Shown here: in pieces, positions 730 through 3,833 of the stretch | Layout: the number at the start of each line of letters is the position of its first letter | Position numbering within the stretch: position 1 is the first letter of the stretch | Virus record (IMG/VR): IMGVR_UViG_3300023290_000168 | Reading direction: 5' to 3' (one strand) | DNA length: 5,653 bases | Origin: a virus | Taxonomy: Duplodnaviria > Heunggongvirae > Uroviricota > Caudoviricetes | Program-made: the position numbers and the translations under genes | The notes under the pieces: generated by a model | Database searches by the model: none | What the model saw: the letters and a program-made list of their open reading frames with translations, nothing else | Told to the model about the DNA's origin: nothing

Positions 730-2067
730 TTAGATGATAAATGACAGCAGGAATGTGCCCGCCAGAGCGACGACTGAAGCGATAAATGTCGCTGTCGTAT
801 AGTATTTAAATGTTTCATTGAGCGTAGCACCGCAATATTGCTTCACCAGCCAGAAAAGCGAGTCCGTAACGATCGTGCAGCCAATCGCACCTGAACCGAT
901 GGCAATTGCAATAATTTCCGGGCTGATGTCGGGATACAGCGGCAGCATGGGTGCAACAATTGCCGTTGCCCCCATCATTGCCACCGTAGCGGAGCCCACT
1001 GCAGCATGCAGAATAAGTGCCACCAACCAGGCCAGAAGAATCGGGTGCATATGCATATTGGAGAGAATAACTGCCAGCGTATCAGCGAGACTGCTGCTTT
1101 TTAAAATGGCGTTGAATGCGCCTCCGGCCCCGATAATCAGCAAAATATTAGCAATAGAACCGAAACCATTTTCCGTATGTGTGAGCATCGTCCCCATGCT
1201 CATATGCTGACGTATACCCAACACATAATAGGCGACAAATACGGCGATAAACATGGCAGTGATAGGGTTGCCAATAAACTCAAGCAAGGTATACAAACCA
1301 CTCTCACGCGCCATATTCAATTCGGCAATCGTTTTAACCAACATCAGCGCAATGGGTAGCAGTATGGTGAATAACGTTGCGCCTAATGACGGTAGTGTTT
1401 TTTCATCGCGAACTTTGAGATCGGCAAACTCTGTGGGTACAGGTTTAAAGGGCAGTCGTTGCCCCAGAAATTTAAGGAAAAGTGGGCCACCGATCAGTGA
1501 TGCCATCAGCCCAACCAGCAAACCGTAGACGATCACCGAACCGATATCTGCGCCCAGCTTATTGGCAACATATAAAGCAGCCGGATGTGGGGGAACCACG
1601 CAGTGCACTGCCATCAATGCGGTACACAGCGGAATGGCCAGCTTTAACAATGAGGTATTGGTTTTTTTGGCAATTGAAAAAGCCAGAGGAATCAATAGCA
1701 CGACGCCCACTTCAACAAACAGCGTGATGCCGCAAATCAGGCCAACCAGCACCATAATGACATCAGCTGAAAGCCACCGGCAGCGTTGAAGTGTCAGACC
1801 AATTCTTTCTGCGGCCCCGGATACTTCCATCATTTTTCCCAGTATCGTGCCAAGGCCGATAACCGCAGCGAGGAACCCCAGCGTTCCGCCAATTCCACTT
1901 TCAATAGCATTTACCATATCCAGTGGCCCCATGCCCATCATCGTTCCCACGAAGAAGCTGGCCAGCAACAGCGCCAGAAACGGGTGGAATTTGAACTTCA
2001 CGATGGTCAGTACAATTAACACGATGCTGATAAGCAGCGTGCTCACAACCCAGATTTGAGAGTGCAT
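730..2067 (-). CDS. dsdX: D-serine transporter, GntP-family permease (445 aa)
   Basis: Track ORF of 445 aa, very hydrophobic multi-pass membrane protein ([35 protein letters not shown]...). ATG at 2067-2065 is preceded by a GAAGGTGAGAT purine-rich RBS; stop TAA at 732-730. The sequence matches E. coli DsdX as I recall it, and the position between dsdC and dsdA is the canonical arrangement. Confidence 0.92.
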
Positions 2068-2284
2068 ATCTCACCTTCCCCTGTGATTAACCTGATGATA
2101 TTGGACAAAAAAACAACGCAGGCTGACAAACGATAAAATTTGCCTTTCACGTGAGCTAAATTGCATCAATGGAGTGATTTACATCTAAAAATGAAGGTGA
2201 ATTGAGATATGGTTCACTTTAGCTCACCTAGAAGCTGAAATTTTGCCGCTATTTTTTTACACTTAAGAGAAAAATGAGGTGATT
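2068..2284. promoter_or_regulatory. Divergent dsdX / dsdC control region (promoters and presumed DsdC binding sites)
   Basis: A 217-bp AT-rich spacer between divergently oriented start codons (dsdX ATG at 2067 on minus, dsdC ATG at 2285 on plus). It contains a perfect 10-bp inverted repeat, GTGAGCTAAA at 2151-2160 and TTTAGCTCAC at 2218-2227. LysR-type regulators typically bind dyad sites in such divergent regions. Exact -35/-10 elements are not confidently assignable by eye. Confidence 0.5.
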
Positions 2285-3220
2285 ATGGAACCCCTTCGTG
2301 AAATAAGAAATCGACTGCTTAACGGCTGGCAACTATCAAAACTGCATACTTTTGAAGTGGCTGCCAGGCATCAGTCCTTCGCCCTTGCGGCAGAGGAATT
2401 GTCGCTGAGCCCCAGTGCGGTAAGTCACCGTATCAATCAGCTGGAAGAAGAATTAGGTATTCAGTTGTTTGTTCGTTCCCATCGCAAAGTGGAATTAACG
2501 CACGAGGGGAAACGTGTTTATTGGGCGCTAAAATCGTCGCTGGATACCCTGAATCAGGAAATTCTGGATATCAAAAATCAGGAGTTATCGGGAACGTTAA
2601 CGTTGTATTCCCGGCCCTCTATCGCCCAATGCTGGTTGGTGCCCGCATTAGGTGACTTTACACGCCGATATCCGTCTATTTCGCTCACCGTGCTCACTGG
2701 TAATGACAATGTCAATTTGCAACGTGCCGGAATCGATTTGGCGATCTACTTTGATGATGCGCCGTCAGCGCAATTGGCTCATCACTTTCTGATGGATGAA
2801 GAAATCCTGCCAGTTTGCAGCCCGGAGTACGCTCATAGACATGATTTAACCAACACGGTAATTAACCTGCGTCACTGTACGTTGCTCCATGACAGACAGG
2901 CATGGAGCAACGACTCCGGTACGGATGAATGGCATAGTTGGGCGCAACATTATGCGGTTAATTTGCCGACATCTTCTGGAATTGGCTTTGATCGCTCTGA
3001 TTTAGCCGTTATCGCCGCGATGAATCATATTGGGGTGGCGATGGGAAGGAAACGTCTGGTACAAAAAAGGCTTGCCAGTGGTGAGCTCGTCGCGCCGTTT
3101 GGCGATATGACGGTGAAATGCCATCAGCATTATTACATCACTACATTACCGGGCAGGCAGTGGCCAAAAATTGAGGCATTTATTACTTGGTTAAGAGAAC
3201 AGGTAAAAACCACTTCATAA
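2285..3220 (+). CDS. dsdC: LysR-type transcriptional activator of D-serine utilisation genes (311 aa)
   Basis: Track ORF 2279..3220 begins at a GTG (MIMEPL...). I prefer the ATG at 2285 (MEPLREIRNRLLNGWQL...), which has AGGTG about 5 nt upstream and gives 311 aa. N-terminal LysR-family HTH (TFEVAARHQSFALAAEELSLSPSAVSHRINQLEEELG) followed by a co-inducer-binding domain. Divergent from dsdXA, as expected for DsdC. Confidence 0.9.
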   Translation: MEPLREIRNRLLNGWQLSKLHTFEVAARHQSFALAAEELSLSPSAVSHRINQLEEELGIQLFVRSHRKVELTHEGKRVYWALKSSLDTLNQEILDIKNQELSGTLTLYSRPSIAQCWLVPALGDFTRRYPSISLTVLTGNDNVNLQRAGIDLAIYFDDAPSAQLAHHFLMDEEILPVCSPEYAHRHDLTNTVINLRHCTLLHDRQAWSNDSGTDEWHSWAQHYAVNLPTSSGIGFDRSDLAVIAAMNHIGVAMGRKRLVQKRLASGELVAPFGDMTVKCHQHYYITTLPGRQWPKIEAFITWLREQVKTTS

Positions 3221-3319
3221 TGAATAAGACCACGAGTTCCTGGTGTGCCTTATTCGGCATTGCTAGTGCGAATTTAATAATTTACGGTTTTTACGTGGTT
3301 TTAGGGATAAACACAAGAA

Positions 3320-3334
3320 TGGTGTCCCCTGCAG
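3320..3334 (-). mobile_element. Prophage attR core: displaced 3'-terminal fragment of tRNA-Arg (argW), bacterial/prophage junction
   Basis: Minus strand of 3320-3334 reads CTGCAGGGGACACCA, which matches the acceptor 3' strand plus discriminator and CCA of E. coli argW as I recall it (...GGTTCGATTCCTGCAGGGGACACCA). Similarity stops at 3335. An excisionase gene lies immediately on the prophage side and dsdC on the chromosomal side, the known context of the KplE1/CPS-53 attR. No complete tRNA is present. Confidence 0.6.
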
Positions 3335-3407
3335 ACATCTACTTGAGGCGGCAGGGGATTGATTGGAATGGTGTTTTTTAGATGTGAGAAATATTTTACC
3401 CGCTATT

Positions 3408-3608
3408 TTACCCATTGGCGCGGCTTAAGAGCTTATTTTTGAATTCACAATGGTCACGATATAACCATCTTGCTCGCCCGTGGATAACTTTGGCTTTTGG
3501 CAGGTCGCCGGACTTAATCCGGTCATAGATGAAGGTTTTACCGAAGCCAGTATCGGCCATGATGAATTTCAAATCAACCAGTGAATCAGGTTGTAGTTCG
3601 TGTTGCAT
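3408..3608 (-). CDS. torI: Prophage excisionase / recombination directionality factor (winged-helix Xis family), also known as Tor response-regulator inhibitor (66 aa)
   Basis: Track ORF of 66 aa, MQHELQPDSLVDLKFIMADTGFGKTFIYDRIKSGDLPKAKVIHGRARWLYRDHCEFKNKLLSRANG, which I recognise as TorI of KplE1. Its size and its position as the first gene inside attR fit an Xis. ATG at 3608-3606, stop TAA at 3410-3408. Confidence 0.85.
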   Translation of the reverse strand: MQHELQPDSLVDLKFIMADTGFGKTFIYDRIKSGDLPKAKVIHGRARWLYRDHCEFKNKLLSRANG

Positions 3609-3627
3609 GAGTGCTATCTCCGAATAG

Positions 3628-3643
3628 GGAATCGAACCTGCAA
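3628..3643 (-). other. tRNA-Arg T-arm-like fragment (16 nt) within the prophage arm, upstream of torI
   Basis: Minus strand of 3628-3643 reads TTGCAGGTTCGATTCC, identical to the variable-loop/T-arm segment of argW as I recall it. The flanking bases do not complete a T-stem, so this is a fragment and not a tRNA gene. Confidence 0.4.
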
Positions 3644-3650
3644 ATCAGGC

Positions 3651-3673
3651 AATAAAAAACCGCCATCAGGCGG
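3651..3673 (-). terminator. Rho-independent terminator (minus strand) after the 55-codon ORF and upstream of torI
   Basis: Minus strand reads GCCGCC-tgat-GGCGGt followed by TTTTTTATT (stem 3660-3673 region, U-tract from 3651-3659). The TGA stop of the 55-codon ORF sits in the loop. Confidence 0.6.
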
Positions 3674-3833
3674 CTTGGTGTTCTTTCAGTTCTTCAATTC
3701 GAATATTAGTTACGTCTGCATGTGCTATCTGCGCCCACAGCATCCAGTGGTCATAGCAGTCGTTGATGTTCTCTGCTTCGATAACTCTGTTGAATGGCTC
3801 TCCATTCCATTCACCTGTGACTCGGAAGTGCAT
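3666..3833 (-). CDS. Hypothetical small protein (55 aa), prophage-encoded
   Basis: Not in the track (below its size cutoff). My own translation from ATG 3833-3831 gives MHFRVTGEWNGEPFNRVIEAENINDCYDHWMLWAQIAHADVTNIRIEELKEHQAA, ending at TGA 3668-3666. GGAG lies 7 nt upstream of the ATG (plus-strand CTCC at 3841-3844) and an intrinsic terminator follows directly. Caveat: two terminator-like hairpins sit immediately upstream and there is no obvious dedicated promoter. Confidence 0.4.
   Translation of the reverse strand: MHFRVTGEWNGEPFNRVIEAENINDCYDHWMLWAQIAHADVTNIRIEELKEHQAA

What the first reader, a model, noticed from the sequence alone, without database searches (positions are those of the whole stretch)
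3320..3643. The tRNA-Arg 3' half appears split into two fragments flanking torI
On the minus strand, 3628-3643 reads TTGCAGGTTCGATTCC (the T-arm segment of argW as I recall it) and 3320-3334 reads CTGCAGGGGACACCA (acceptor 3' end plus CCA). Together these would reconstitute the contiguous 3' ~31 nt of argW, but they are separated by about 290 bp containing torI. The distal piece is the expected attR core. The proximal piece lies inside the phage arm, between a terminator and the torI start. It may be a relic of a longer tRNA-derived attP segment, a secondary or ancestral attachment site, or a sign that the xis gene was inserted into a tRNA-derived sequence.
Basis: partly seen in the sequence, partly recalled or inferred. 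Interest (0 to 1): 0.5.

Follow-up and report, generated by a model that had tools for sequence, protein, structure and literature searches.

The report
Conserved tRNA T-loop box before torI
Both tRNA-like strings are real: one is the known attachment-site core of an HK620/KplE1-type prophage at argW, and the other is an extra copy of the argW T-arm kept just upstream of the excisionase gene torI in most relatives, so torI did not split a tRNA half.

Summary
Window 3643..3628 (minus strand) is TTGCAGGTTCGATTCC and 3334..3320 is CTGCAGGGGACACCA. In the real argW gene they abut with a 1-nt overlap.

The distal piece is the published 16-nt KplE1/HK620/Sf6 core (CTGCAGGGGACACCAT) at attR.

The proximal piece is not chance, and it is not simply the other half of a split tRNA:
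- It is present in HK620, Sf6 and Kapi1. In the CUS-3 GenBank record it was used, apparently wrongly, as the "att core".
- It overlaps the putative cII/pI promoter annotated in HK620 and Sf6.
- Across 69 distinct TorI-family excisionases, 51 have GTTCGATTCC 4-7 nt (once 13) before the xis ribosome-binding site. Four have tandem copies and 18 have none.
- The box is at least 90% conserved while its flanks drift.
- In several relatives the P arm next to the core keeps its own in-register T-loop remnant (TTCGAT-GTA|TGCAGG). The upstream piece is therefore an additional copy.
- No E. coli genome shows recombination between the 16-mers.
- A published 135-bp attR without the piece supports excision in vitro.

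Best reading: a tRNA/attB-derived cis-element kept by selection in the torI leader, probably regulatory. It contains the TorI-site pentamer GTTCG and equals the attB half-site. Its function is inferred, not shown.

The parts
3628..3643 (-). 16-mer TTGCAGGTTCGATTCC, identical to the argW T-arm (end of the variable loop, 5' T-stem, T-loop, first 2 nt of the 3' T-stem). This is the proximal piece of the finding.
   Evidence: Same 16-mer in HK620 and in 22+ IMG/VR contexts. It is annotated as attL/attR 'core' in the CUS-3 record.
3627..3637 (-). Family-wide conserved box GTTCGATTCC(C). It contains the pentamer GTTCG and equals the 10 bp of argW/attB that abut TGCAGGG.
   Evidence: found in 51 of 69 distinct Xis lineages, with box columns at least 90% identical. 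The TorI-site pentamers GTTCG/GATCG/GTCCG are given in PMC2951348.
3618..3621 (-). GGAG ribosome-binding site of torI, 6 nt downstream of the 16-mer.
   Evidence: Sequence. The spacing is conserved at 4-7 nt in relatives, 13 nt in Serratia.
3408..3608 (-). torI (66 aa excisionase/RDF).
   Evidence: ORF. RefSeq annotates it as TorI WP_001163428.1 in the identical genome.
3393..3413 (-). Two GGGTAAAAT repeats overlapping the end of torI. Probable IntS arm-type sites of the P arm.
   Evidence: Sequence. IntS arm sites share a TAAA motif according to PMC2951348. Assigning these two repeats to IntS is my inference.
3351..3357 (-). CCCCTGC, an inverted repeat of GCAGGGG in the core.
   Evidence: present 24 nt before the core in 53 of 65 distinct contexts, with matching changes in Rouxiella (CCCCTAC/GTAGGGG) and Edwardsiella-type loci (TCCCTGC/GCAGGGA).
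3335..3341 (-). TAGATGT, the P-arm segment abutting the core. It is a degenerate in-register counterpart of the argW T-loop (TTCGATGTA in relatives) and a probable core-type half-site.
3319..3334 (-). attR core CTGCAGGGGACACCAT. This is the distal piece of the finding plus one T.
   Evidence: Published core in PMC2951348. The Kapi1 att site is in PMC8787464. Annotated as attP core in HK620 and Sf6.
3653..3676 (-). Intrinsic terminator (stem 3676..3657 plus T-run) ending the upstream early-left gene. The mosaic joint with lambda-type xis-int modules lies just after it.
   Evidence: Lambda-type prophages share the sequence up to window 3640 and then diverge.
3640..3652 (-). TTGC-CTGAT-TTGC. The homologous stretch is annotated in HK620 as a cII-binding site of a putative 'phage integration' promoter. 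Its second TTGC is the first 4 nt of the 16-mer.
   Evidence: searches (HK620 features; Sf6 'pI' feature), mapped onto the window by the 99% alignment.
3666..3833 (-). 55-aa ORF, homologous to the small ORF that precedes xis in lambda-type prophages.
   Evidence: No Pfam family.

Best explanation
The window holds the right end (attR) of a ~43-kb HK620/CUS-3-like P22-type prophage integrated in argW.

The distal string is the 16-nt crossover core. The proximal string is an extra copy of the argW T-arm. More precisely, it copies the roughly 10 bp of attB that lie immediately 5' of the crossover segment TGCAGGG, plus the 5' T-stem. This copy belongs to the leader of the excisionase gene and is inherited with the xis-attP-int recombination module throughout the IntS/TorI family.

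It most likely originated from tRNA/attB sequence. This is inferred from three things: it matches argW at 15-16 of 16 positions, it has the same orientation as the core, and it ends where the crossover segment begins.

It has been kept by selection as a cis-element, not as debris. The most likely role is control of torI expression by the recombination proteins themselves. The box carries the TorI-site pentamer GTTCG, equals the attB 'B' half-site that IntS would contact, and sits 6 nt from the torI ribosome-binding site and inside the putative pI-type promoter. Bound protein would therefore block torI transcription or translation.

Shown here: identity, position, conservation, dispensability, and absence of recombination at the 16-mer. 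Inferred: tRNA origin, selection, and above all which protein binds and what the regulatory outcome is.
For: Genomic setting:
- The window is 100% identical to E. coli ATCC 11775. argW-intS lies 43 kb away, and torI-core-dsdC forms attR.
- The core is as published.

The 16-mer is part of the module:
- It is in virion-derived genomes HK620 and Sf6, contiguous with torI, the attP core and int.

Conservation:
- 211 loci gave 69 distinct Xis proteins. Of these, 51 have GTTCGATTCC (up to 2 mismatches) within 90 nt upstream, always on the sense strand and 4-7 nt (once 13) before GGAG.
- Box columns are at least 90% identical, against 30-80% for the 18 nt upstream.
- The box persists in Serratia, where the rest of the leader is different.
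- Tandem copies occur in Erwinia-type phages.
- Among 80 contigs with identical TorI, the 16-mer shows only 5 minor-allele occurrences (highest 2 of 80). The 15-nt 5' flank shows 29 (highest 19 of 80) and the 19-nt 3' flank shows 14.

tRNA likeness:
- The subfamily consensus TTNCAGGTTCGATTCC equals argW at every defined position.

Extra copy, not missing half:
- TTCGAT-GT(A/C)|TGCAGG lies in register next to the core in Erwinia, Serratia, Citrobacter, Pantoea, Rouxiella and others.

Candidate ligands:
- TorI sites are defined by GTTCG/GATCG/GTCCG, and TorI already represses the intS promoter through such sites (PMC2951348).
- The authors argue that control of excision must act on the RDF gene.
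Against: - No experiment shows any protein binding here.
- The box differs from mapped TorI sites. The 2 nt before GTTCG vary, the base after it is always A rather than C/T, and the conserved part extends 3' (ATTCC), which TorI sites lack.
- As an IntS half-site it matches the palindromic consensus around the core (GGTGTC/GACACC) at only 3 of 6 positions (my reading).
- The element is dispensable. 18 of 69 lineages lack it, some by clean deletion. A 135-bp attR that starts at the end of torI supports excision in vitro (PMC3509656).
- The copies in tandem arrays are 13-16 nt apart, which fits no known site phasing.
- The conservation counts come from related sequences and are not independent events.
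- All relatives target the same tRNA, so co-variation of the box with the target tRNA could not be tested.
Confidence: 0.5

Rival explanations
1. Neutral relic. An ancestral attP carried the contiguous ~31-nt 3' part of argW, and a cassette made of xis plus the P arm was inserted into it, possibly with a short target duplication of the T-loop. The upstream T-arm is stranded debris.
For: The two pieces abut in argW. T-loop sequence flanks the xis-P-arm segment on both sides in relatives: GGTTCGATTCC on the left and TTCGATGTA on the right. This looks like a duplication around an insert.
Against: Debris should decay. Instead the box is at least 90% conserved across genera while adjacent leader positions drift, and it is nearly monomorphic within the E. 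coli type. The two copies overlap in tRNA coordinates rather than partition them. Tandem upstream copies exist. No contiguous, xis-less form was found in E. coli genomes.
Confidence: 0.15
2. Promoter element. The 16-mer is simply the -35/spacer part of a cII-activated pI-like promoter, as annotated in HK620 and Sf6. That promoter would make an int transcript starting after the torI ribosome-binding site. The likeness to argW would be coincidental or incidental.
For: HK620 and Sf6 records annotate a cII site (TTGC-N5-TTGC) and an integration promoter over window 3653..3615. The stretch up to the second TTGC is homologous to the cII-site region of lambda-type xis-int modules. The prophage encodes a lambda CII-family protein.
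Against: The tetrad spacing is N5, not the N6 of cII sites (established knowledge of lambda pRE/pI/paQ). The first tetrad is TTAC in 19 of 80 E. coli-type loci. In most other lineages the second tetrad is TCCA, TACA or absent, while GTTCGATTCC stays. What is conserved is therefore not the cII site. No sigma-70 promoter is detected. A 15-16 nt identity to the target tRNA, ending at the crossover boundary, is not expected from a promoter.
Confidence: 0.12
3. Alternative or secondary attachment site. The 16-mer repeat (argW T-arm at attL, copy upstream of torI) is a second crossover site, as implied by the CUS-3 record that names it attL/attR core.
For: It is a perfect 16-bp direct repeat at the two ends of the prophage body. 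It is annotated as the att core in CP000711.
Against: In K1 strains whose prophage is 100% identical to the CUS-3 right end, torI and the true core follow 20 nt and about 290 nt later. The CUS-3 int lies 15 nt further from the annotated 'core' than in HK620, as expected if the true core is the adjacent CTGCAGGGGACACCAT. 0 of 5426 E. coli genomes contain the argW-5'/torI joint, and no one-piece contiguous joint was seen among the listed matches. Virion genomes HK620 and Sf6 contain torI. Deleting the 17-bp true attB was reported for Kapi1 in PMC8787464.
Confidence: 0.03
4. RNA-level element. The box acts in the torI mRNA leader, as an anti-Shine-Dalgarno segment (UUCC pairing with GGAG) or as a T-arm mimic recognised by an RNA-binding factor.
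For: The box has a fixed strand and a fixed 4-7 nt distance to GGAG. RNAalifold's only consensus pairing is UUCC with GGAG, kept in at least 14 of 16 sequences at each of the 4 pairs.
Against: The helix is 4 bp with a consensus energy of -1.15 kcal/mol and no compensatory changes. The 3' half of a T-stem is not conserved, so no T-arm hairpin forms in most lineages. The single-sequence fold is not unusual (z = -1.9, dominated by the terminator). There is no Rfam match.
Confidence: 0.08

Closest known systems
KplE1 (CPS-53)/HK620/Sf6 recombination module (Panis, Mejean and Ansaldi 2007; PMC2951348; PMC3509656)
   Same: Same 16-nt core, same TorI protein, xis and int on opposite sides of attP, integration in argW next to dsdC, GGGTAAAA repeats and GTTCG-type TorI sites.
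   Different: In the papers I could read, the published description of attR starts at the end of torI (135-bp substrate). The T-arm box upstream of torI is not part of the described att sites, and no role is assigned to it.
CUS-3 prophage 'attL/attR core' annotation (GenBank CP000711)
   Same: It is exactly this 16-mer, recognised as a direct repeat at both ends of an argW prophage.
   Different: It was interpreted there as the crossover core. The data here indicate that the true core is the adjacent or distal CTGCAGGGGACACCAT, and that the record omits torI and about 290 bp of the prophage.
Lambda pI, the cII-activated integrase promoter that overlaps the xis start
   Same: Same position (just before xis, after the same small ORF and terminator) and partial sequence homology up to the second TTGC. 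HK620 and Sf6 annotate it as such.
   Different: The spacing is N5 instead of N6, the tetrads are not conserved in relatives, and the conserved part is the T-loop box, which lambda lacks.
tRNA 3'-fragment direct repeats at the ends of tRNA-integrated prophages and islands (Reiter 1989; Williams 2002, from knowledge)
   Same: A tRNA-derived direct repeat in the same orientation as the tRNA gene, associated with an integrase module.
   Different: Ordinary repeats contain the crossover segment and the tRNA 3' end and sit at the junction. This one lacks both, lies about 290 bp inside the element, and is conserved in free phage genomes.
RDFs that double as transcriptional regulators (P2 Cox, 186 Apl, P4 Vis, from knowledge; TorI repression of PintS, PMC2951348)
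   Same: An RDF-site pentamer in a promoter or leader region of a recombination gene, which would give feedback control.
   Different: The box is not a consensus TorI site, and no binding or autoregulation of torI has been shown.

Membership tests
KplE1/HK620/Sf6-type recombination module (attR side) | 16-nt core CTGCAGGGGACACCAT shared with the 3' end of argW | tested here: met
   Window 3334..3319; argW sequence; published core.
KplE1/HK620/Sf6-type recombination module (attR side) | TorI RDF gene immediately phage-side of the core, with intS at the other prophage end next to argW | tested here: met
   torI 3608..3408. intS and tRNA-Arg lie 43 kb away in the same genome. The HK620 Int has arm-binding, central and catalytic domains.
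KplE1/HK620/Sf6-type recombination module (attR side) | Functional excision with IntS, TorI and IHF | not testable with these tools
   Only the literature is available.
tRNA gene or pseudo-tRNA | Cloverleaf detectable by a tRNA finder or covariance model | tested here: not met
   ARAGORN finds 0 genes. There is no tRNA hit in Rfam at E up to 10. Only 16 + 15 nt match argW.
Attachment-site core (crossover site) | Recombinant joints exist: an empty site or excised circle joined at the repeat | tested here: not met
   For the 16-mer: 0 of 5426 genomes carry the argW-5'/torI joint, and the listed reciprocal-joint matches are all two-piece hits across torI. For the distal 16-nt core: met (empty sites).
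cII-activated promoter (lambda pI/pRE type) | TTGC-N6-TTGC straddling the -35 region | tested here: not met
   The window has TTGC-N5-TTGC. The first tetrad is polymorphic, TTAC in 19 of 80. The second tetrad is absent in most relatives.
cII-activated promoter (lambda pI/pRE type) | cII-dependent transcript start | not testable with these tools
   There are only feature annotations in HK620 and Sf6.
TorI (RDF) binding site | 8-bp site with core GTTCG/GATCG/GTCCG, typically (C/T)(A/G)GTTCG(C/T), in arrays | tested here: inconclusive
   The pentamer GTTCG is present (3637..3633). The flanking positions deviate (AGGTTCGA). The site is single in the window. The consensus is read from attL sequences and PMC2951348.
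IntS core-type half-site (B-type) | Sequence identical to the attB segment abutting the overlap region | tested here: met
   GTTCGATTCC equals the argW positions directly 5' of TGCAGGG. Binding itself was not tested. The position of the overlap region is my inference from the inverted repeat GGTGTC-TGCAGGG-GACACC.

The most novel reading that the evidence does not exclude
The box is a decoy attB half-site built into the leader of the excisionase gene. Integrase kept at a low constitutive level in the lysogen, and/or TorI itself, binds this tRNA-mimicking operator and gates RDF expression. The prophage would then use a copy of its own chromosomal target as the sensor that sets the int/xis balance. 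This would be a new regulatory layer for the 'uncoupled' xis-attP-int modules.
Probability: 0.2. Interest if true: 0.6.

Novelty: new variant of a known kind. Interest (0 to 1): 0.35.

Why it matters
The recombination module itself is textbook-level known, so most of the finding is ordinary. Three points have some value.

1. A widely used phage record (CUS-3) seems to be delimited at the wrong repeat. It therefore lacks its excisionase gene and its true attR.
2. The Ansaldi laboratory argued that excision of this phage family is controlled at the RDF gene. A strongly conserved, tRNA-derived box 6 nt from the torI ribosome-binding site is a concrete candidate for that control and is easy to test.
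3. The double representation of the T-loop, upstream of xis and next to the core, gives a handle on how the unusual xis-attP-int gene order arose.

Tried and rejected
- Chance match: rejected. The match is 16/16, in the same orientation as the core, and conserved in relatives.
- Real or degraded tRNA gene: rejected.
- Tandem-accretion model, with torI as the remnant of an older element and the P22-like prophage ending at the 16-mer: rejected, because virion genomes HK620 and Sf6 carry torI between the 16-mer and the attP core.
- tRNA 3'-end fragment downstream of int, as predicted if the module had entered through a site between int and xis: none found. Only chance-level 9-10-mers turned up.
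- RNA hairpin or T-arm mimic: no conserved 3' stem and no covariation.
- Sigma-70 promoter: none by scan.
- Generality in more distant IntS-like modules (Pseudomonas VW-6S, Stenotrophomonas S1, Acinetobacter Acba_3; 35-39% Int identity): no sense-strand box upstream of int. The element is specific to the argW-targeting clade.
- Test of co-variation with other target tRNAs: impossible. Every relative recovered has a TGCAGGG(G/A)... tRNA-Arg-type core.
- Papers that might describe the torI upstream region or the CUS-3 att sites were not held (King 2007; Menouni 2013). Panis 2007 (JBC) and Panis 2010 (Virology) were not looked up, so I cannot exclude that the box is mentioned in any of these four.

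Full report
**Where the window comes from.** The region around the finding is 100% identical to E. coli ATCC 11775. In that genome the order is dsdX, dsdC, then torI and phage early-left genes. tRNA-Arg (argW) and intS lie 43 kb further on. The window therefore spans attR of a P22-like (HK620/CUS-3-like) prophage integrated in argW. In the window, dsdX is 730-2067 (-), dsdC is 2279-3220 (+), torI is 3608..3408 (-), and a 55-aa ORF is 3833..3666 (-).

**Check of the observation.**
- Both strings are present once each at the stated minus-strand coordinates, even when 2 mismatches are allowed.
- The real argW gene, read from a strain with an unoccupied site, ends GGGCTAATTGCAGGTTCGATTCCTGCAGGGGACACCA, followed by TTCTTGTG.
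The 16-mer and the 15-mer abut in argW with a one-base overlap and together cover 30 nt.
- Similarity of the window to empty sites begins exactly at 3334.
- No tRNA is detectable by ARAGORN or Rfam.

**The distal piece.** CTGCAGGGGACACCAT (3334..3319) is the published 16-nt core that borders KplE1 (PMC2951348). Kapi1, Sf6 and HK620 use the same site (PMC8787464; feature tables). This part is already known.

**The proximal piece is part of the module and has been seen before.**
- The stretch from the upstream terminator through torI to the core is 98-99% identical in HK620, HK633, Sf6, Kapi1, N7 and others. In HK620 and Sf6 it is contiguous with the attP core and int. torI and the 16-mer are therefore phage DNA, not the remnant of an older element.
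- The GenBank record of CUS-3 begins and ends with exactly this 16-mer, labelled attL core and attR core.
- That labelling appears to be wrong. The CUS-3 int starts 176 nt after the labelled core, against 161 nt after the true core in HK620. That is the 15-nt offset between the two strings in argW.
- In K1 strains whose prophage is 100% identical to the last 1573 nt of the CUS-3 record, torI follows 20 nt later, and then the true core and dsdC.
- HK620 and Sf6 annotate a putative cII site (window 3652..3640, TTGC-CTGAT-TTGC) and a 'phage integration'/pI promoter (window 3653..3615) over the same stretch.

**Mosaic context.** Lambda-type prophages at the attλ site, next to ybhC, have the same 55-aa ORF and terminator. 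They stay similar up to the TTGC at window 3640 and then continue into lambda-type xis-int. Other E. coli-type contexts have a different upstream gene but the same sequence from the terminator T-run onward. The recombination module thus starts at about 3658, just before the 16-mer.

**Wide comparison.** I collected 211 loci that encode TorI-family excisionases, from species-representative genomes, IMG/VR and phage records. They give 69 distinct Xis proteins, down to about 48% identity with TorI.
- 51 of the 69 carry GTTCGATTCC (up to 2 mismatches) within 90 nt upstream of xis. It is always on the sense strand and 4-7 nt (13 in Serratia) before GGAG.
- 4 of the 69 have two tandem copies, 13-16 nt apart.
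- 18 have none.
- Anchored on the box, the columns GTTCGATT are at least 90% identical. The 18 nt upstream are 30-80% identical and the 6-nt spacer 40-70%.
- The 5' T-stem part drifts: CAGG, CAAG, CCTG, TCAG. A large subfamily reads TTNCAGGTTCGATTCC, which equals argW at all defined positions. The E. coli type has N = G, giving 16/16.
- In Serratia the box is retained (TTCCAGGTTCGATTCCTG, 17 of 18 identical to argW) although the rest of the leader differs.
- Box-less leaders include clean deletions such as TTGCCTGGAGATA and cases where xis overlaps the preceding gene.
- Among 80 contigs with identical TorI, the 16-mer shows 5 minor-allele occurrences (never more than 2 of 80 at a site). The 15-nt 5' flank shows 29 (up to 19 of 80) and the 19-nt 3' flank shows 14.
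- These counts are not phylogenetically independent, but they point the same way: the box is constrained.

**Why it is not 'the other half' of a split tRNA.**
- Aligning the P arm next to the core shows that many relatives read TTCGAT-GT(A/C)|TGCAGGGGACACCA. This is in register with argW TTCGAT-TCC|TGCAGGGGACACCA. Examples are Erwinia phage, Serratia, Citrobacter, Pantoea, Rouxiella and several IMG/VR lineages. The window has the degenerate TAGATGTC.
- The tRNA-like part of attP therefore once ran contiguously through the T-loop. The T-loop is present twice, once next to the core and once upstream of xis.
- In g341c-type phages the same position reads GGTGTC. That is the exact inverted repeat of GACACC across the 7-bp TGCAGGG. 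This suggests that TGCAGGG is the overlap region and that these hexamers are the core-type integrase sites (inference).
- On that reading, the upstream box equals the 'B' half-site of attB.

**Tests of a recombination role.**
- No E. coli complete genome (0 of 5426) contains the joint argW-5'-T-arm|torI leader that recombination between the two 16-mers would leave.
- The 81 genomes that cover the reciprocal contiguous joint at 80% or more appear to do so as two pieces about 380 bp apart, which is the normal split arrangement. All 12 listed rows are of this kind.
- Published in vitro excision uses an attR of 135 bp that starts at the end of torI, so the box is not needed for excision (PMC3509656).

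**What it might do.**
- PMC2951348 defines TorI sites by the pentamers GTTCG, GATCG and GTCCG. It shows that TorI represses the intS promoter through sites I4 and I5, and argues that the main control of excision must act on the RDF gene.
- The box contains GTTCG, sits 6 nt from the torI ribosome-binding site, and lies inside the annotated promoter. An operator for TorI and/or IntS is therefore the most economical functional guess.
- Against this: its flanks differ from mapped TorI sites, it matches the palindromic core-type consensus poorly, it is dispensable, and nothing has been measured.
- The cII/pI reading is weak. The spacing is N5, the first tetrad is TTAC in 19 of 80 E. coli-type loci, and the tetrads are not conserved in relatives that keep the box. 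No sigma-70 promoter is found by scan.
- An RNA role is unsupported. The only consensus pairing is a 4-bp UUCC/GGAG helix at -1.15 kcal/mol without covariation. The T-stem 3' half is not conserved. The single-sequence fold is dominated by the terminator.

**Generic motif caveat.** The T-arm motif itself is generic. The 14-mer CCAGGTTCGATTCC lies inside called tRNA genes in 45 of 80 IMG/VR stretches examined, mostly tRNA-Arg. Many of the rest look like tRNA fragments, and one is a xis leader. The core of the 16-mer is a common T-arm motif. Its exact argW identity, orientation, position and family-wide conservation next to xis are not generic.

**Limits.**
- All relatives target tRNA-Arg(CCU)-type cores, so co-variation of the box with the target tRNA could not be tested.
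- More distant IntS-like modules (35-39% identity) show no such box.
- Two key papers were not available, so prior description of the box cannot be excluded.

**Verdict.** The distal piece is the known attR core. The proximal piece is a conserved, probably attB/tRNA-derived box in the torI leader. It is an extra T-arm copy, not the stranded half of a tRNA split by torI, and not a second crossover site. Its function is unproven, and a regulatory operator is my best guess. Interest is modest.

Noticed in passing
window 3351-3357 and 3326-3332 (minus strand); L021, L022, L320, L325: CCCCTGC lies 24 nt before the overlap segment and is the inverted repeat of GCAGGGG in the core. It is present in 53 of 65 distinct contexts. 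It changes in step with the core in Rouxiella (CCCCTAC/GTAGGGG) and in Edwardsiella-type loci (TCCCTGC/GCAGGGA). It may be an extra integrase site or a hairpin. I saw no description of it in the papers read.
   Followed up: partly
GenBank CP000711 (L005, L006); L347 (E. coli IHE3034): The CUS-3 phage record is delimited by the T-arm 16-mer as 'att core'. It therefore lacks torI, the P arm and the true attR core. In genomes with an identical prophage end these follow immediately.
   Followed up: yes
L347 (IHE3034), attR core: The attR core reads TGCAGGGACACCA, with three G instead of four. This is either a homopolymer sequencing error or a core mutation that would hamper excision.
   Followed up: no
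window 3640-3660; L001 3230-3275: Mosaic joint. Lambda-type xis-int prophages next to ybhC share the 55-aa ORF, its terminator and TTTTTT(A/C)TTGC..TTGC with this prophage, then diverge. This is consistent with the 'boundary sequence' annotated in Sf6 (bsq2).
   Followed up: partly
window 3263-3415 (minus strand): A 50-aa ORF (homologue of HK620 hkaB / Sf6 gene 17) starts inside the end of torI and runs across the att core. In the prophage its 3' part is host DNA, so the product differs between the integrated and excised states.
   Followed up: no
L348 5597-7899 (ATCC 11775 prophage, outside the window): An IS21-family element (ISEc12) is inserted between the ant gene and the tailspike gene of this prophage. 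The prophage may therefore be defective.
   Followed up: no
L015 and L032: Contigs assigned to an 'Actinomycetes' MAG and a 'Parachlamydiaceae' MAG carry enterobacterial-type torI modules, 85-92% identical in protein. This is probably mis-binning or contamination.
   Followed up: no
L307, L312, L314 (IMG/VR) and L018 (Dryocola): Box-less leaders read terminator-TTATTGCCTGGAG... They look like precise deletions of the box between short GG/CTGG repeats. This shows that the element can be lost without loss of the module.
   Followed up: partly
window 3364-3372 (minus strand); L007 1827: ACACCATTC in the P arm equals the last 6 nt of argW plus 3 nt downstream. It is a 9-mer at chance level (about 10 such matches in 40 kb) and is not conserved in Erwinia or Klebsiella relatives.
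   Followed up: yes
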